Origin: a virus
Taxonomy: Duplodnaviria > Heunggongvirae > Uroviricota > Caudoviricetes
DNA length: 4,384 bases
Virus record (IMG/VR): IMGVR_UViG_3300022758_000081
Location: 1 to 4,384 of that record
Direction: 5' to 3' (one strand)
Shown: positions 1 to 4,384 of the stretch, piece after piece
Layout: every line of letters begins with the position of its first letter
Numbering within the stretch: the first letter of the stretch is position 1
Notes under the pieces: model-generated
The model's input: only the letters and a program-made list of their open reading frames with translations
Told to the model about the DNA's origin: nothing
The model's database searches: none
Program-made: the position numbers and the translations under genes

Positions 1-1096
1 GCCGGGATTCTGGAACTCTCCGTGAAATGCAACATGGGCGATCCGGATAACGATTTCTTCGAGCTTCGTGCAGATGACCTGCGTGATGAGCGTTCTTACC
101 GTCGCCGCATCCAGGCATCCGCCGAAAAAACTGGCGAATAACATTGAGTCAGCAATTGCCAAACAGGCAACCGAAATGGGCTCACTTGTTGTTCACGATA
201 CCCGCGCAATTGGTCCATCTACTGGCCTGTCTGGCTGGGATTTTGTGTCTGATGCAGAGCGCCTGATGTTCTCCCGTGAGCTAAACCGCGATATGGGCAT
301 CAGTTACTTCCTGAACCCTGACGATTACCGCAAAGCAGGCCGCAACCTGGTAGATGGTGACATCTTTGGGCGCGTTCCTGAAGACGCGTATCGCAACGGT
401 ACTATTCAGCGTCAGATTGCTGGCTTTGATGAAATTCTTCGCTCACCGAAACTTCCGGCAGTTACCAAGTCAACCGCTACTGGTGTAACTGTTTCTGGTG
501 CGCAGAAGTTTAAGCCGCAGGCATACACTCTTGATACCGATGGTAACAAAGAGAACGTCGACAACCGTGTTGCAACTGTGACCGTATCCTCCACCACCGG
601 GTTTAAGCGCGGCGACAAAATCAGCTTCACTGGTGTGAAATTCCTGTCTCAGATGGCGAAGAACGTGCTGACTGATGATGCTACTTTCTCAATCACCCGT
701 GTGATCGATGGTACTCACATCGAAATCACGCCGAAGCCGATTGCACTGGATGACGCGTCACTGACAAAAGAAGAGAAGGCTTACGCTAACGTAAACACCT
801 CTCTTGCTGATACCACTCCGGTAAACGTTCTGAACGTGGCAACAACCACCGCTAACGTGTTCTGGGCTGATGACTCAATCCGACTGCTGTCTCAGCCTAT
901 CCCGGTAACCCATGAGCTGTTTGCTGGCATGAAAACGTCTTCCTTCAGCATTCCTGGTATTGGTGTTAACGGCATCTTCGCAACGCAGGGTGATATCAAC
1001 ACTCTGTCTGGTAAGTGCCGTATTGCTGTGTGGTATTCAGCATGTGCTGTACGACCAGAGGCAATTGGTGTTGGTCTGCCTAACCAGACTGCGTGA
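1..1096 (+). CDS. P22-like major capsid (coat) protein, gp5 family; 5'-partial and interrupted by a +1 nt frameshift
   Basis: Frame 1 from the window start translates [38 protein letters not shown], which matches the P22 coat protein as I recall it (..[33 protein letters not shown]). That frame stops at TAA 139-141. Coat homology (KKLANNIE...EMGSLV...[10 protein letters not shown]...GDKISF.GVKFL.QMAKNVL...[12 protein letters not shown]) resumes in frame 2 and runs to TGA 1094-1096. The frame switch maps to the A6 run at 125-130. The ORF-track start at GTG 68 is internal, not the real start. Confidence 0.88.
2..22. repeat. Left copy of a 21-bp perfect inverted repeat (CCGGGATTCTGGAACTCTCCG) shared with the right window terminus
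   Basis: Direct comparison: the reverse complement of 4364-4384 is identical to 2-22, and similarity stops abruptly at the inner boundary. The repeat lies inside the coat ORF (encoding GILELS). Confidence 0.85.
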
Positions 1097-1104
1097 TAAC
1101 CAGA

Positions 1105-1126
1105 GGGAGCTTCGGCTCCCTTTTCT
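1105..1126 (+). terminator. Putative intrinsic (rho-independent) terminator/attenuator downstream of the coat gene
   Basis: Perfect 6-bp GC-rich stem GGGAGC (1105-1110) / GCTCCC (1115-1120) with a TTCG tetraloop (1111-1114), followed by TTTTCT (1121-1126), starting 9 nt after the coat stop codon. Partial terminators after the highly expressed coat gene are a known feature of tailed-phage late operons. Confidence 0.6.
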
Positions 1127-1139
1127 ATTGGAGATACCA

Positions 1140-1727
1140 ATGAGCGTAATGATTTTTCAGGCTGGCGGAGATACCAAAATCTGGGGGCGCAAGCTGAAAA
1201 CGAAAACCGTTGATCCTGATGATGTAGCTGTGCACTTAGCAAATGGCTGGTATAAGCACCCTGACGATGTTCCTGATGATCCTCTTGTTGGTGATCAAAT
1301 TGGGAGTGTTGGCGGAGGTGAAACTTCCCCAGTTGATATGGGCGAAGTGTCCGACGGTTATCACACTTTTAACGAGCTTTACGCTCACCGAGTGCGCCTC
1401 TTCTCATCGCTGATGCATGCTTACGCTGAGCTTTCGTGGTGGTCTCGCAAACACAGTGACGGTGAAGAGTGGGATGGCTGGATCATTGCTGGTATCACCA
1501 CTCCAGAAGGCGAAATCACTTATCACCTACCTGTTGAAGAAATCGAGTTCCTTCCTGAAGGTACTGAGCTTGAGTTCGGGAAAGAGTGGGATGGTCATGA
1601 AGCAAATGATGTTCTTGGACGACTCCTGAGTTTGCGTCCGGCCATTGCAGAGCCAGAAGAAAAACAGCGTAAAAAGCCTGGTCGAAAACCTAAGGCGGCA
1701 GCAGATGAACCTGACAACGAAGGGTGA
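1140..1727 (+). CDS. Hypothetical acidic protein (195 aa) between the coat and gp4 genes; function unknown, possible moron
   Basis: ATG 1140-1142 preceded by GGAG at 1130-1133 (6-nt spacer); open to TGA 1725-1727. The product is visibly Asp/Glu-rich ([53 protein letters not shown]) with a short basic C-terminal tail ([11 protein letters not shown]). Its 3' end overlaps the gp4 start by 23 nt. I do not recognise the family. Confidence 0.6.
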
Positions 1728-2316
1728 TTTAGTTCTTGCGGCATTACGTAAGCTCGGTGTGGCATCAAATGCCACGTTAACCGATGTCGAACCGCAGTCT
1801 ATGGAAGACGGCGTCAACGACCTTGAAATGATGATGGCTGAATGGCTTGGCGGTGATGCGTCACCTGGGATCAACGTTGGCTACATTTTTGCTGATGCAG
1901 ATGTCGCTCCGGATCCGGGCGATGAACACGGTTTATCAAATAACGCTATCAATGCCGTTATTTTCAATCTTGCCTGCCGCATTGCTCCAGATTATGCGCT
2001 GGAAGCGTCTGCAAAACTTATAACCACTGCCAGATACGGGAAAGAGCGACTCGTCAAACTGTCTGCAATGGACAGAGCAAAAGCCGCTAAATGTAAGTCC
2101 GGTTATCCAAACCGTATGCCTGTTGGTAGCGGTAACCAGTTGGCGAAGTGGAACGGTTGGAATTACTTCCACCGAAAGAACCTTGCGATAACGGGAGCGA
2201 ATAATGCCGATTCAGCAACTTCCGCTCATGAAAGGTGTCGGCAAAGACTTCCGAAATGCCGACTATATCGACTATCTACCAGTGAATATGTTGGCTACAC
2301 CCAAAGAAATCCTTAA
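1705..2316 (+). CDS. P22 gp4-like head completion / portal-binding tail accessory factor; 3' end uncertain (possible frameshift)
   Basis: ATG 1705-1707; the N-terminal region [33 protein letters not shown]...[14 protein letters not shown] matches my recollection of P22 gp4. As read, the frame runs 112 nt into gene 10 and ends in an Arg/Cys-rich tail ([15 protein letters not shown]...) that looks like out-of-frame read-through. A TAA at 2202-2204 in the -1 frame would give a TAATG stop-start overlap with gene 10. Confidence 0.72.
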
Positions 2317-3620
2317 CAGCAGCGGATATCTTCGCTCATTCCCGGGCATTGCCAAACGCTCTGATGTAAACGGTGTATCGCGCGGAGTCGAGTACAACAT
2401 GGCGCAGAATGCTGTTTATCGCGTGTGTGGTGGGAAGCTTTACAAAGGCGAAAGCGAAGTCGGTGACGTCGCCGGAAGTGGTCGCGTATCAATGGCGCAT
2501 GGTCGGACATCTCAGGCTGTAGGTGTTAATGGTCAACTGGTCGAGTATCGCTATGATGGCACGGTTAAAACCGTCTCAAACTGGCCTACAGACAGCGGAT
2601 TCACACAGTACGAGTTAGGTTCAGTTCGCGACATTACGCGCTTACGTGGGCGTTATGCGTGGTCAAAAGACGGAACTGATTCATGGTTTATCACTGACCT
2701 TGGAGACGAATCGCACCCTGACCGATACAGTGCACAATATCGTGCCGAGTCTCAGCCTGACGGTATTATCGGCATCGGAACATGGCGAGACTTCATCGTC
2801 TGCTTTGGTTCATCGACGATTGAATATTTCTCCCTGACTGGTGCAACCACAGTTGGTGCTGCTTTGTATGTCGCACAGCCATCGCTGATGGTGCAAAAAG
2901 GCATCGCCGGGACTTACTGCAAACGCCGTTTGCTGATTCCTATGCGTTTATCAGCAATCCGGCAACAGGTGCGCCGTCTGTATACATCATCGGCTCCGGT
3001 CAGGTGTCACCAATTGCCAGCGAGAGCATTGAGAAATCCTCCGCTCCTACACTGCTGATGAACTGGCTGATGGTGTGATGGAATCGCTGCGGTTTGATGC
3101 TCATGAGTTGCTGATTATCCACCTTCCTCGCCATGTTCTCGTGTACGACGCATCTTCAAGCGCCAATGGTCCGCAATGGTGTGTACTGAAAACAGGCTTG
3201 TATGACGATGTGTACCGCGCTATCGACTTCATTTACGAAGGAAATCAGATAACGTGCGGCGATAAGCTGGAATCGGTGACCGGGAAATTGCAGTTCGATA
3301 TCAGCAGTCAGTATGGGCTTCAACAGGAACACCTGCTGTTTACTCCACTGTTCAAAGCGGATAACGCCAGATGCTTCGATCTGGAGGTGGAATCATCCAC
3401 TGGCGTAGCTCAGTACGCCGACCGCCTGTTCCTCTCTGCAACCACTGACGGCATAAATTATGGGCGTGAGCAGATGATTGAGCAGAATGAACCGTTCGTT
3501 TACGACAAACGCGTTTTGTGGAAACGAGTAGGGCGCATCAGGAAAAACATTGGTTTCAAATTGCGCGTTATCACGAAGTCACCTGTCACTCTGTCTGGCT
3601 GCCAGATAAGGATTGAGTAA
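2204..3620 (+). CDS. P22 gp10-like tail accessory factor (head completion / tail hub protein), interrupted by two -1 nt frameshifts
   Basis: ATG 2204-2206 with GGGAG at 2193-2197. [49 protein letters not shown]... closely matches P22 gp10 as I recall it. Homology runs in frame 2 to about 2920, frame 1 from 2923 to 3033 ([38 protein letters not shown]), and frame 0 from 3033 to TAA 3618-3620 ([39 protein letters not shown]...LSGCQIRIE). The ORF-track pieces 2204..3058 and 3075..3620 are fragments of this one gene. The stop overlaps the next ATG as TAATG (3618-3622). Confidence 0.88.
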
Positions 3621-3757
3621 TGGCGGATTCGAATCTCAATGTGCCGGTAATCATTCAGGCTACACGGCTAGACACATCAGTCCTTCCACGCAATATCTTC
3701 TCGCAGTACATCTGCCCGTGGCGGAATTTGCGCGCAGCGAACGATGTGACGCACTGA
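3620..3757 (+). pseudogene. Remnant of the P22 gp26-like tail needle gene: N-terminal ~30 codons only
   Basis: ATG 3620-3622 is translationally coupled to gp10. [28 protein letters not shown] matches the gp26 N-terminus as I recall it ([28 protein letters not shown]). Similarity ends at about codon 29-30 (near 3705-3712). The frame then reads unrelated sequence ([17 protein letters not shown]) to TGA 3755-3757. No frame downstream encodes the expected coiled-coil needle shaft. Confidence 0.7.
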
Positions 3758-4038
3758 ACGGTGGTGTTAGTCAGAATGTATCGCCAGAACGCCAGCCCGA
3801 TTTCCTTGCTGAAGCCGCGAATCTCTGGCAGGTACATGGCGTGGCAATCGAATGTCAGCGGCTGAATCTCCTGATAGTAAACAATGCCGCCGAACTGCCC
3901 GTGCACGTTCACCTCAAAGTAACGGCAATCAGGTTTGTAGTCGTATCCATCACCGTTGTTGCTCCCGGCGATAATGTCAGGGTGATTTCCTACTGCTTCG
4001 ATCAGGTCGATGTTTCGCGTTGGTTTGAACTGAATCAT
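3655..4038 (-). CDS. Hypothetical protein (127 aa), unknown function; convergent with the late operon
   Basis: Start ATG is the complement of 4036-4038, with GGAG about 7 nt upstream on the minus strand. It overlaps the upstream gene's TAA as TAATG. Codon choice in the sampled core (aac ggt gat tac gac aaa cgt gtg) looks like genuine enterobacterial coding sequence, whereas the in-register plus-strand ORF 3613..4095 uses rarer codons (agg, gta). The last ~17 codons are antisense to the gp26 remnant and use rare codons (agg, gga, ata), so the native C-terminus is probably lost or altered. Confidence 0.55.
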
Positions 4039-4384
4039 TACTGCTCCGCGATTATCTTGATGGTTGTGGCAGTAAACGCCGCACCATTTGACTGAATGGT
4101 TAACGTACTGCCATTTGTGGCAAGAAAGCCGTCTTTATCCACGCTGAAGAACGTAGCTAACAGGATGTTGTCGGTTGTTGTCGCCGCATTACGACTGCTG
4201 ACCAGTGTGTCAGGAACAGAGCCGGAAAAGGTTAGCTGCATTGACCTGTTTGCGGTTCCGCTGGGCCACGTCCCGACGATCGACAGCTTGAAGAACAAGG
4301 TTTTGTTCTCGTTGAACACAACCATCTTGTTGTTAACGGTGTCGAAGAATGGTGCCAACGTGCCGGAGAGTTCCAGAATCCCGG
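4038..4384 (-). CDS. Hypothetical protein, C-terminal portion only (the gene continues beyond the right edge of the window); Thr/Ser/Asn-rich, beta-type sequence
   Basis: The minus-strand frame is open from the window edge (..GILELSGTLAPFFDTVNNKMVVFNENK...GSTLTIQSNGAAFTATTIKIIAEQ) to a TAA that is the complement of 4038-4040. The TTG at 4356-4358 reported by the ORF track is not a real start. The composition resembles a fibre, adhesin or receptor-binding domain, but I recognise no family. Its first visible codons lie in the 21-nt terminal inverted repeat. Confidence 0.5.
   Translation of the reverse strand, partial: GILELSGTLAPFFDTVNNKMVVFNENKTLFFKLSIVGTWPSGTANRSMQLTFSGSVPDTLVSSRNAATTTDNILLATFFSVDKDGFLATNGSTLTIQSNGAAFTATTIKIIAEQ
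4364..4384. repeat. Right copy of the 21-bp perfect inverted repeat (reverse complement of 2-22)
   Basis: CGGAGAGTTCCAGAATCCCGG at 4364-4384 is the reverse complement of 2-22. It is read in the same frame (GILELS) by the minus-strand terminal ORF. Confidence 0.85.

What the first reader, a model, noticed from the sequence alone, without database searches (positions are those of the whole stretch)
121..3042. All detected frameshifts sit in poly-A runs: systematic homopolymer error or a decaying prophage
There are three clear indels (A6 at 125-130, A3 at 2921-2923, A3 at 3034-3036) and one probable indel (gp4 3' end) in about 3.6 kb of otherwise well-conserved structural genes, with no in-frame stop codons or other lesions seen. 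Restriction to A homopolymers is the signature of homopolymer-prone sequencing such as unpolished nanopore or older pyrosequencing data. Homopolymer slippage is also a common route of real pseudogenisation in cryptic prophages. The distinction matters for whether this element is functional.
Basis: inference. Interest (0 to 1): 0.5.

Follow-up and report, generated by a model that had tools for sequence, protein, structure and literature searches.

The report
Probable sequencing-error frameshifts in P22-like prophage
Four one-base frameshifts in otherwise perfect P22-like phage structural genes are unique to this short, rearranged sequence. They most likely reflect error-prone, chimeric sequence data rather than a decaying prophage, so the finding is ordinary.

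Summary
The window is the late-gene block of a P22-like (Sf6/HK620-type) E. coli prophage: coat, WDGH ORF, gp4, gp10 and the tail-needle N-terminus. The four one-base indels are real in the sequence. Only two are poly-A changes (A4 to A3 at 2921-2923 and 3034-3036). The first is an inserted G at 124, next to an unchanged A6. The gp4 one is GG to G at 2178.

All four are absent from every relative examined: 213-909 E. coli genomes and 135 fetched loci. Undoing them gives full-length proteins 99-100% identical to those of a related prophage with intact gene calls (L007). Only one substitution (3023) is private. Uncompensated coding frameshifts are about 370 times denser here than in 131 relatives.

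At 3702-3707 the needle gene is fused to a reverse-complemented piece of DUF2824 plus the needle knob. At 4364-4367 that piece is fused to the reverse complement of window 2-22, which gives a perfect 21-nt terminal inverted repeat. Both joints use 4-6 nt of microhomology and occur nowhere else.

Best reading (about 0.65): a low-accuracy, chimeric read or contig. Real, very recent decay (about 0.25) cannot be excluded without reads. Interest is low.

The parts
1..1096 (+). Coat protein gene (P22 gp5 family), codons about 68-431. Frame 1 runs to a TAA at 139-141 because of the inserted G at 124. The rest of the gene continues in frame 2 to the stop at 1094-1096.
   Evidence: Pfam PF11651, E = 3.7e-137 on the restored product. 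The restored product matches the L007 coat at 362 of 363 residues.
124..124 (+). Private 1-nt insertion (G) directly 5' of an unchanged A6 run (125-130).
   Evidence: all references read GCC|AAAAAA. The window allele is found in 0 of 135 loci, 0 IMG/VR contigs and 0 GTDB genome contigs. The restored allele is found in 133 of 135 loci and at least 120 IMG/VR contigs. The best of 217 E. coli genomes is identical except for the gap.
1103..1126 (+). GC-rich stem with a UUCG loop followed by a U run, just after the coat stop. Probably an intrinsic terminator. It is background and not part of the lesions.
   Evidence: Fold of 1092-1138: -15.3 kcal/mol, z = -2.0. The simple terminator scan did not list it.
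1140..1727 (+). WDGH-domain ORF (195 aa), intact.
   Evidence: The exact protein is on record in 290 blocks of public assemblies. Pfam PF25311, E = 1.3e-39. It matches L007 at 195 of 195 residues.
1705..2316 (+). gp4 (head-tail adaptor, P22_Tail-4). The native gene would end at 2202-2204. The 1-nt deletion at 2178 replaces the last 8 residues and extends the ORF to 2316.
   Evidence: The restored product is 166 of 166 residues identical to L007. Pfam PF11650. The 203-aa frameshifted product is not on record.
2178..2178 (+). Private 1-nt deletion, GG to G (reference AAAGGAAC, window AAAGAAC).
   Evidence: The window allele is in 0 loci and the restored allele in 45 of 135 loci. The best of 213 E. 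coli genomes is identical except for the gap.
2204..3620 (+). gp10 (head closure, Phage_stabilise), split across three frames: 2204-3058, a short shifted stretch, and 3075-3620.
   Evidence: The restored product is 472 aa, with 467 of 472 residues identical to L007. Pfam PF11134, E = 1.8e-298. The truncated products are not on record.
2921..2923 (+). Private 1-nt deletion, A4 to A3.
   Evidence: The window allele is in 0 loci and the restored allele in 50 of 135 loci. None of 909 E. coli genomes matches the surrounding 246 nt better than 96.8%.
3023..3023 (+). The only substitution still private after 90 relatives (C to A, Ala274Glu of gp10). It lies 11 nt upstream of the indel at 3034.
   Evidence: C in 90 of 90 relatives.
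3034..3036 (+). Private 1-nt deletion, A4 to A3.
   Evidence: The window allele is in 0 loci and the restored allele in 37 of 135 loci. A pattern spanning it has 0 matches in metagenome contigs.
3620..3707 (+). The first 29 codons of the tail needle gene (gp26), cut off by joint 1.
   Evidence: Alignments to all references end at 3707-3715. The translation is [29 protein letters not shown].
3702..3707 (.). Joint 1: 6-nt microhomology (CGCAGT) between the gp26 N-terminal region and the reverse-complemented DUF2824 gene.
   Evidence: No E. coli genome spans it: 0 of 656 with at least 80% coverage. There are 0 exact matches in viral, genome or metagenome contigs.
3702..4038 (-). DUF2824 (P22 gp14 position), codons 1 to about 112 of 151, reverse-complemented relative to the rest. 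With read-through into antisense gp26 it forms a 127-aa chimeric ORF (3655-4038).
   Evidence: 98-99% identity. Pfam PF11039, profile positions 2-113 of 151. The chimeric product is not on record.
4038..4367 (-). C-terminal part (about 109 codons) of the Sf6-type tail needle knob, reverse-complemented.
   Evidence: Pfam PF16532, profile positions 67-175 of 175. It has no private substitutions or indels.
4364..4367 (.). Joint 2: 4-nt microhomology (TCCG/CGGA) between the needle-knob piece and the reverse complement of the coat gene at window 2-22.
   Evidence: No E. coli genome spans it: 0 of 789 with at least 80% coverage.
4364..4384 (.). The right arm of a perfect 21-nt terminal inverted repeat. 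The left arm is window 2-22. Both ends of the window therefore stop at the same coat-gene coordinate.
   Evidence: the repeat finder I1, 100% complementary.

Best explanation
The four frameshifts are most likely technical errors in a low-accuracy, chimeric piece of sequence, not mutations of a living or decaying prophage.

The underlying DNA is an ordinary, apparently functional P22-like (Sf6/HK620-type) E. coli prophage late region. The window looks like a single or low-coverage long read or small contig. Residual errors in such data are mainly 1-nt indels in or beside short purine or A runs. Its structure was scrambled by template switching at 4-6 nt microhomologies, for example by strand-displacement amplification or a fold-back chimeric read.

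Shown: the privacy of every lesion, the intact background, the excess of indels, and the anatomy of the joints.

Inferred: that the cause is technical, and which platform or amplification was responsible.
For: 1. Privacy.
- None of the four indels occurs in any relative.
- The best matches among 217, 213 and 909 E. coli genomes are identical except for the gap, or reach at most 96.8%.
- Among 135 loci the window alleles occur 0/0/0/0 times and the restored alleles 133/45/50/37 times.
- The wild-type allele at indel 1 occurs in at least 120 IMG/VR contigs and the window allele in 0.

2. Intact background.
- Undoing the four bases gives coat 362/363, WDGH 195/195, gp4 166/166 and gp10 467/472 residues identical to L007.
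- The 62 nucleotide differences from L007 fall in 49 synonymous and 8 nonsynonymous codons.
- Block by block, the window is almost identical to other prophages whose late genes are called intact: 0-1 mismatch per 200 nt over about 400-3000 against L007, and 0 mismatches over 3201-3707 against L001.

3. Spectrum.
- There are four private indels against one private substitution. 3023 stays private; 3015T and 3128T occur in 8/90 and 4/88 relatives.
- E. coli mutation-accumulation lines give 147 substitutions to 37 indels (PMC5289635).
- Counting the three substitutions that looked private against 15 references, P(4 or more indels among 7 events) is 0.003-0.03. It is lower with one substitution.

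4. Density. There is 1 uncompensated coding frameshift in 347 kb of 131 relatives, against 4 in 3.7 kb here.

5. Run length. Natural indel rates rise exponentially with run length (PMC8510543). None of the eight runs of 5 or more is altered, while A4, A4, G2 and a non-run site are.

6. Error profile. It resembles reported nanopore-assembly errors: deletions in 2-8 nt homopolymers, mostly A/T; insertions not tied to homopolymers; indels 69% of errors (PMC12007338).

7. Clustering. Five of the seven differences that were private against the first 15 references lie within 208 nt, P of about 8e-4. That suggests a local low-quality patch.

8. Rearrangement. The same 4.4 kb carries two unique inverted or deleted joints with 6- and 4-nt microhomology and a 21-nt terminal inverted repeat. 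This is the pattern described for MDA chimeras: more than 85% are inverted with intervening deletions, with priming at 2-21 nt complementarity and mostly within one molecule (PMC1855051).
Against: - No reads, quality values or sample metadata are available, so the technical origin is inferred and not observed.
- The source sequence could not be located in any collection, so the platform is unknown.
- Classical homopolymer-error platforms should hit the longest runs first, but the A6 and the seven 5-nt runs are correct.
- One lesion is a non-homopolymer insertion.
- If the DNA really is rearranged in vivo, the genes are already dead and neutral frameshifts could accumulate.
- Microhomology joints also arise in vivo.
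Confidence: 0.65

Rival explanations
1. Real, very recent decay. The window is a true piece of a defective, rearranged P22-like prophage remnant, or of a defective phage DNA molecule. An in vivo microhomology-mediated template switch inverted and deleted part of the needle/DUF2824 region. Four neutral 1-nt indels then accumulated in the dead genes.
For: The lesions are truly present in the sequence. The rearrangement truncates gp26 and DUF2824, so downstream decay would be neutral. Short-run slippage and microhomology joints are known in vivo processes. Non-detection in 5,426 RefSeq E. coli genomes does not cover Shigella, draft assemblies or rare lineages.
Against: There is only one private substitution against four private indels, whereas the E. 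coli spectrum is about 4 substitutions per indel. The background is essentially identical to prophages with intact gene calls and shows a strong synonymous bias, so there was almost no time for decay. Real slippage should prefer the A6, A5, T5 and G5 runs. No lesion and no joint is shared with any other sequence. Six independent inactivating events without IS elements or nonsense mutations is an odd way for a prophage to decay.
Confidence: 0.25
2. Consensus artefact of a mixed population. The window is a collapsed consensus of two or more co-occurring related prophages, in a metagenome or a polylysogen. The indels arise where haplotypes were mis-merged.
For: The window switches between parental types: L008-like, then L007/L010-like, then L001-like. 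The cluster of private or rare differences (2921-3128) sits at the switch from the L007-like to the L001-like block.
Against: Mosaicism at this scale is normal for P22-like phages. Indels 1 and 2 lie inside long blocks that are identical to a single reference. This explanation overlaps with the main artefact explanation and does not exclude it.
Confidence: 0.07
3. Functional recoding. The frameshift sites are programmed ribosomal frameshift or transcriptional-slippage sites, or phase-variable tracts that regulate structural genes.
For: The sites are in or next to A-rich tracts.
Against: The tracts are only 3 nt long in the window. No relative has these frames. gp10 would need two successive shifts. 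Coat, gp4 and gp10 are single-frame genes in all references.
Confidence: 0.01

Closest known systems
Gene-fragmenting indel errors in long-read or low-coverage assemblies (ONT, PacBio, 454, Ion Torrent), as described for example for the Kastor tool (PMC12007338)
   Same: One-base indels at about 1 per kb split otherwise conserved genes. The deletions are in short A or G runs and the insertion is not tied to a homopolymer. Indels outnumber substitutions. The lesions are absent from all relatives.
   Different: No reads or platform information are available. The longest runs (A6, A5, T5, G5) are all correct. The total is only four events.
Template-switch chimeras of multiple displacement amplification (Lasken & Stockwell 2007, PMC1855051) and fold-back chimeric long reads
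   Same: An inverted segment with an intervening deletion. The joints have 6 and 4 nt of complementarity. Both partners lie within about 5 kb of the same phage genome. Both ends of the sequence map to one coordinate.
   Different: There are two joints in a single 4.4-kb sequence. There is no evidence that the sample was amplified. Similar joints can arise in vivo by replication template switching.
Cryptic or defective prophage decay (pseudogenisation of prophage structural genes)
   Same: Essential head and tail genes carry frameshifts and truncations.
   Different: There are no accompanying private substitutions, nonsense codons or IS elements. No lesions are shared with related isolates. The background is indistinguishable from prophages with intact gene calls.
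P22-like phages of E. coli and Shigella (Sf6, HK620, CUS-3, IME10): head-completion and tail-needle module
   Same: Gene order is coat, (WDGH ORF), gp4, gp10, needle (Sf6-type knob), DUF2824. Identity is 92-96% to these phages and 96-98% to E. coli prophages.
   Different: The order is broken after needle codon 29, and the next 666 nt are reverse-complemented.

Membership tests
P22-like phage late (head-completion / tail-needle) module | P22-type coat protein | tested here: met
   PF11651, E = 3.7e-137 on the restored product.
P22-like phage late (head-completion / tail-needle) module | gp4 and gp10 head-completion proteins follow the coat gene in that order | tested here: met
   PF11650 and PF11134. 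The order is the same as in the annotated prophages.
P22-like phage late (head-completion / tail-needle) module | An intact tail needle gene followed by DUF2824 (gp14 position) on the same strand | tested here: not met
   The needle gene is cut at codon 29. The knob C-terminus and the DUF2824 N-terminus are present only as a reverse-complemented 666-nt piece.
Homopolymer-length sequencing error | Each indel changes the length of a homopolymer | tested here: inconclusive
   Three of four do (A4 to A3 twice, G2 to G1). The insertion at 124 does not.
Homopolymer-length sequencing error | Errors are concentrated in the longest runs | tested here: not met
   None of the eight runs of 5 or more differs from the references.
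Homopolymer-length sequencing error | The indel is absent from independent sequences of the same allele | tested here: met
   0 of 135 loci and 0 of 213-909 E. coli genomes carry any of them.
Homopolymer-length sequencing error | The indel is unsupported by, or disappears with, accurate reads or polishing | not testable with these tools
   No reads are available and the source was not found.
Decaying (cryptic) prophage | Lesions are shared by related isolates or lineages | tested here: not met
   No indel or joint was found elsewhere.
Decaying (cryptic) prophage | Relaxed selection: private substitutions, many of them nonsynonymous or nonsense, accompany the indels | tested here: not met
   One private substitution. 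There are 49 synonymous and 8 nonsynonymous differing codons against L007, and no nonsense codon.
Decaying (cryptic) prophage | Integrated in a bacterial chromosome with flanking host genes | not testable with these tools
   The window contains phage sequence only, and both of its ends map to the coat gene.
MDA-type / template-switch chimera | An inverted orientation across the joint, with an intervening deletion | tested here: met
   Joint 1 links gp26 codon 29 to reverse-complemented DUF2824 codon 112, and the middle of gp26 is missing.
MDA-type / template-switch chimera | Short complementarity (2-21 nt) at the joint | tested here: met
   6 nt (CGCAGT) and 4 nt (TCCG). The criterion is taken from PMC1855051.
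MDA-type / template-switch chimera | The sample was amplified, or the joint is supported only by a minority of reads | not testable with these tools
   No metadata or reads are available.

The most novel reading that the evidence does not exclude
The lesions are real and linked. An in vivo break in a P22-like prophage was repaired by microhomology-mediated template switching, which produced the inverted joints. The accompanying error-prone synthesis (DinB/Pol IV-type, which I recall to favour -1 frameshifts) left a cluster of 1-nt deletions and a substitution within about 0.8 kb of joint 1 (2921-3034, against the joint at 3702-3707). That would be a natural footprint of mutagenic break repair in a prophage.
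Probability: 0.05. Interest if true: 0.4.

Novelty: not a real feature. Interest (0 to 1): 0.08.

Why it matters
Mainly as a quality flag. Taken at face value, the sequence would be annotated as a dead prophage with pseudogenised coat, gp4, gp10, needle and DUF2824 genes. The evidence says the underlying phage is an ordinary, probably functional P22-like prophage, and that this sequence should not be used to infer pseudogenisation, recoding or rearrangement. If the lesions were real, they would be an unremarkable example of prophage inactivation. Only the unlikely linked break-repair scenario would carry some mechanistic interest.

Tried and rejected
1. Locating the source or a sibling sequence. 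None of these found anything, so no platform or sample information was obtained.
- Exact-product look-ups of the frameshifted gp10 pieces, the extended gp4 and the chimeric DUF2824 ORF.
- Exact scans for joint 1 in viral, genome and metagenome contigs.
- A scan for the indel-4 / private-SNP stretch in metagenome contigs.
- Scans for the indel-1 allele in genome and viral contigs.
- A plasmid search, which gave only 95% relatives.

2. Programmed frameshifting or phase variation. Rejected, because no relative carries these frames and the tracts are only 3 nt long.

3. A de Bruijn-graph explanation for the joints. Rejected for the joints themselves, because 4-6 nt overlaps are far below any k. 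A k=21 graph could at most explain why both ends of the contig stop at the same 21-mer, and the extra base at position 1 does not fit that neatly.

4. Methylation-motif (Dam/Dcm) error contexts for the substitutions at 3015, 3023 and 3128. By my own reading of the sequence (no tool call), no GATC or CCWGG motif lies at those sites, so this is uninformative.

5. Run-length test. Two hits in A4 runs and none in runs of 5 or more is only weakly discriminating between error models, by my own rough estimate (P of about 0.06-0.2 depending on the assumed length dependence).

6. Strand bias (A runs rather than T runs). Not significant, because A runs of 3 or more are twice as common as T runs on this strand.
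Full report
**What the window is.** BLAST against 5,426 complete E. coli genomes and against phage records shows that window 2-3707 is the late-gene block of a P22-like (Sf6/HK620-type) prophage. Identity is 96-97% to many E. coli prophages and 92-96% to phages Louie, IME10, Sf6 and HK620. The annotated neighbours give the gene order: coat, a WDGH-domain ORF, gp4, gp10, tail needle (Sf6-type knob), DUF2824. Pfam scans of the window's products confirm this: P22_CoatProtein, WDGH, P22_Tail-4, Phage_stabilise, DUF2824 and Phage_tail_NK.

**Checking the observation.** I aligned the window base by base to 14 reference loci from 13 genomes. The window differs from all of them by the same four 1-nt indels.
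- At 124 there is an inserted G. References read GCC|AAAAAA and the window reads GCC-G-AAAAAA.
- At 2178 a G is lost (AAAGGAAC becomes AAAGAAC).
- At 2921-2923 an A is lost (A4 to A3).
- At 3034-3036 an A is lost (A4 to A3).

The headline that all frameshifts sit in poly-A runs is true for only two of them. The A6 run at 125-130 has the reference length, so the lesion there is a non-homopolymer insertion beside it. The gp4 lesion is in a G dinucleotide.

Some association with A tracts remains.
- A runs of 4 or more cover about 2% of bases, yet they took 2 of 4 hits, which I calculate as P of about 0.003.
- All four indels lie in or touch an A run of 3 or more. Such positions make up 9.3% of the sequence. 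That criterion was chosen after seeing the data.
- None of the eight runs of 5 or more nt changed length.

**The lesions are private.**
- For the 71 nt around indel 1, the best of 217 E. coli genomes is identical except for the gap.
- The same holds for the 76 nt around indel 2 in 213 genomes.
- For the 246 nt around indels 3 and 4, none of 909 genomes exceeds 96.8%.
- An exact scan of IMG/VR finds 0 contigs with the window's indel-1 allele and at least 120 with the allele lacking the G.

**The background is intact.** Removing the G and restoring the three deleted bases gives full-length genes whose products match L007 (GCA_949281575), a prophage with intact gene calls. The matches are coat 362/363, WDGH 195/195, gp4 166/166 and gp10 467/472 residues. 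The 62 nucleotide differences from L007 fall in 49 synonymous and 8 nonsynonymous codons.

Block by block, the window is a near-exact mosaic of other prophages.
- 1-400 is L008-like, with 0 mismatches.
- About 400-3000 is L007/L010-like, with 0-1 mismatch per 200 nt.
- 3201-3707 is L001-like, with 0 mismatches.

Against the first 15 references only three substitutions were private. With about 90 relatives only one remains: 3023 C to A, Ala274Glu, 11 nt from the indel at 3034. The exact WDGH protein occurs in 290 blocks of public assemblies.

**Why this favours an artefact.**
- A decaying gene accumulates substitutions faster than indels. E. coli mutation-accumulation lines gave 147 substitutions to 37 indels (PMC5289635). 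Here the private changes are four indels to one substitution. Even counting the three substitutions that at first looked private, P(4 or more indels among 7 events) is 0.003-0.03.
- Natural indel rates rise exponentially with run length (PMC8510543). Yet the A6, A5, T5 and G5 runs are untouched.
- In 347 kb of aligned sequence from 131 relatives I found one uncompensated coding frameshift. The window has four in 3.7 kb.
- Five of the seven differences that were private against the first 15 references fall within 208 nt, P of about 8e-4. That pattern fits a local low-quality patch.
- The profile matches what has been reported for nanopore assemblies: deletions in 2-4 nt A or G runs, one insertion not bound to a homopolymer, and more indels than substitutions. 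In that report deletions occurred in 2-8 nt runs, mostly A/T, insertions were not tied to homopolymers, and indels made up 69% of errors (PMC12007338).

The sequence is also structurally scrambled.
- Window 3702-4367 is the reverse complement of a 666-nt piece that normally lies downstream. It comprises the needle-knob C-terminus plus the first 112 or so codons of DUF2824, at 98-99% identity with no private changes.
- It is joined to needle codon 29 through 6 nt of microhomology (CGCAGT, 3702-3707).
- At its other end it is joined through 4 nt (TCCG/CGGA, 4364-4367) to the reverse complement of window 2-22. The window therefore has a perfect 21-nt terminal inverted repeat, and both of its ends stop at the same coat-gene coordinate.
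- Neither joint is spanned in any of 656 and 789 E. coli genomes that carry the flanking sequence. Joint 1 has no exact match in viral, GTDB-genome or metagenome contigs.

Inverted joints with intervening deletions, 2-21 nt of complementarity and partners within one molecule are the pattern described for MDA template-switch chimeras (PMC1855051). Fold-back chimeric long reads look similar. I could not find the source sequence, so the platform and any amplification remain inferred.

**Rivals.**
- Real and very recent decay of an in vivo rearranged remnant cannot be excluded without reads. The lesions are in the sequence, the rearrangement would make later frameshifts neutral, and my collections do not cover Shigella or most draft genomes. 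This reading has to accept six independent inactivating events on a background with essentially no private substitutions, and slippage that avoided every long run. I give it about 0.25.
- A mixed-haplotype consensus artefact is a variant of the technical explanation. The lesion cluster sits at the switch from the L007-like to the L001-like block.
- Programmed recoding is effectively excluded.

**Verdict.** Nothing here is novel. The practical value is as a warning not to read pseudogenisation or rearrangement biology into this sequence before checking the reads.

Noticed in passing
window 2-22 and 4364-4384: A perfect 21-nt terminal inverted repeat. Both ends of the window map to the same coat-gene coordinate, and position 1 (g, where references have a) is the only base outside it. 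If the sequence were circularised, the two arms would form a 43-nt palindrome centred on position 1.
   Followed up: partly
window 3702-4367: A 666-nt reverse-complemented piece (needle-knob C-terminus plus DUF2824 N-terminus), joined at both ends by 4-6 nt microhomologies. It creates a chimeric 127-aa ORF (3655-4038, minus strand) that is not on record anywhere.
   Followed up: yes
window 1140-1727: An intact WDGH-domain ORF lies between the coat gene and gp4, with an internal direct repeat (1460-1477 and 1577-1594) that encodes the repeated EWDG motif. The identical protein occurs in 290 blocks of assemblies. RefSeq annotates it inconsistently: in some genomes as a 104-aa 'hypothetical protein', in others as a 129-aa 'WDGH domain-containing protein', whereas the full ORF is 195 aa.
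   Followed up: partly
window 1103-1126: A GC-rich hairpin with a UUCG tetraloop followed by a U run, directly after the coat stop codon. It is probably an intrinsic terminator or attenuator between the coat gene and the head-completion genes. The simple terminator scan did not flag it.
   Followed up: partly
window about 3074-3200; also about 400: Mosaic breakpoints. The window switches from L008-like to L007/L010-like near 400, and from L007-like to L001-like between about 3074 and 3200. The region 2850-3250 has no close match in any single relative; the best has 7 mismatches in 399 nt.
   Followed up: partly
L012 11066-13157; L010 and L015 8073-8588; L011 12506-13051: In related prophages, HNH (NUMOD4/HNH_3) endonuclease genes are inserted at different points of this module: inside the 5' end of gp10, which leaves a duplicated 34-aa gp10 stub; between the scaffold and coat genes; and between gp10 and the needle gene. 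These look like mobile homing endonucleases.
   Followed up: no
restored position 2975 in one of the fetched loci (among 131 relatives): One relative carries its own single uncompensated 1-nt deletion in gp10. It is the only such case in 347 kb of aligned relatives. I did not identify the locus.
   Followed up: no
window 3496-3527: An imperfect 21-nt palindrome (81% complementary) lies inside the gp10 coding sequence. No function is suggested.
   Followed up: no
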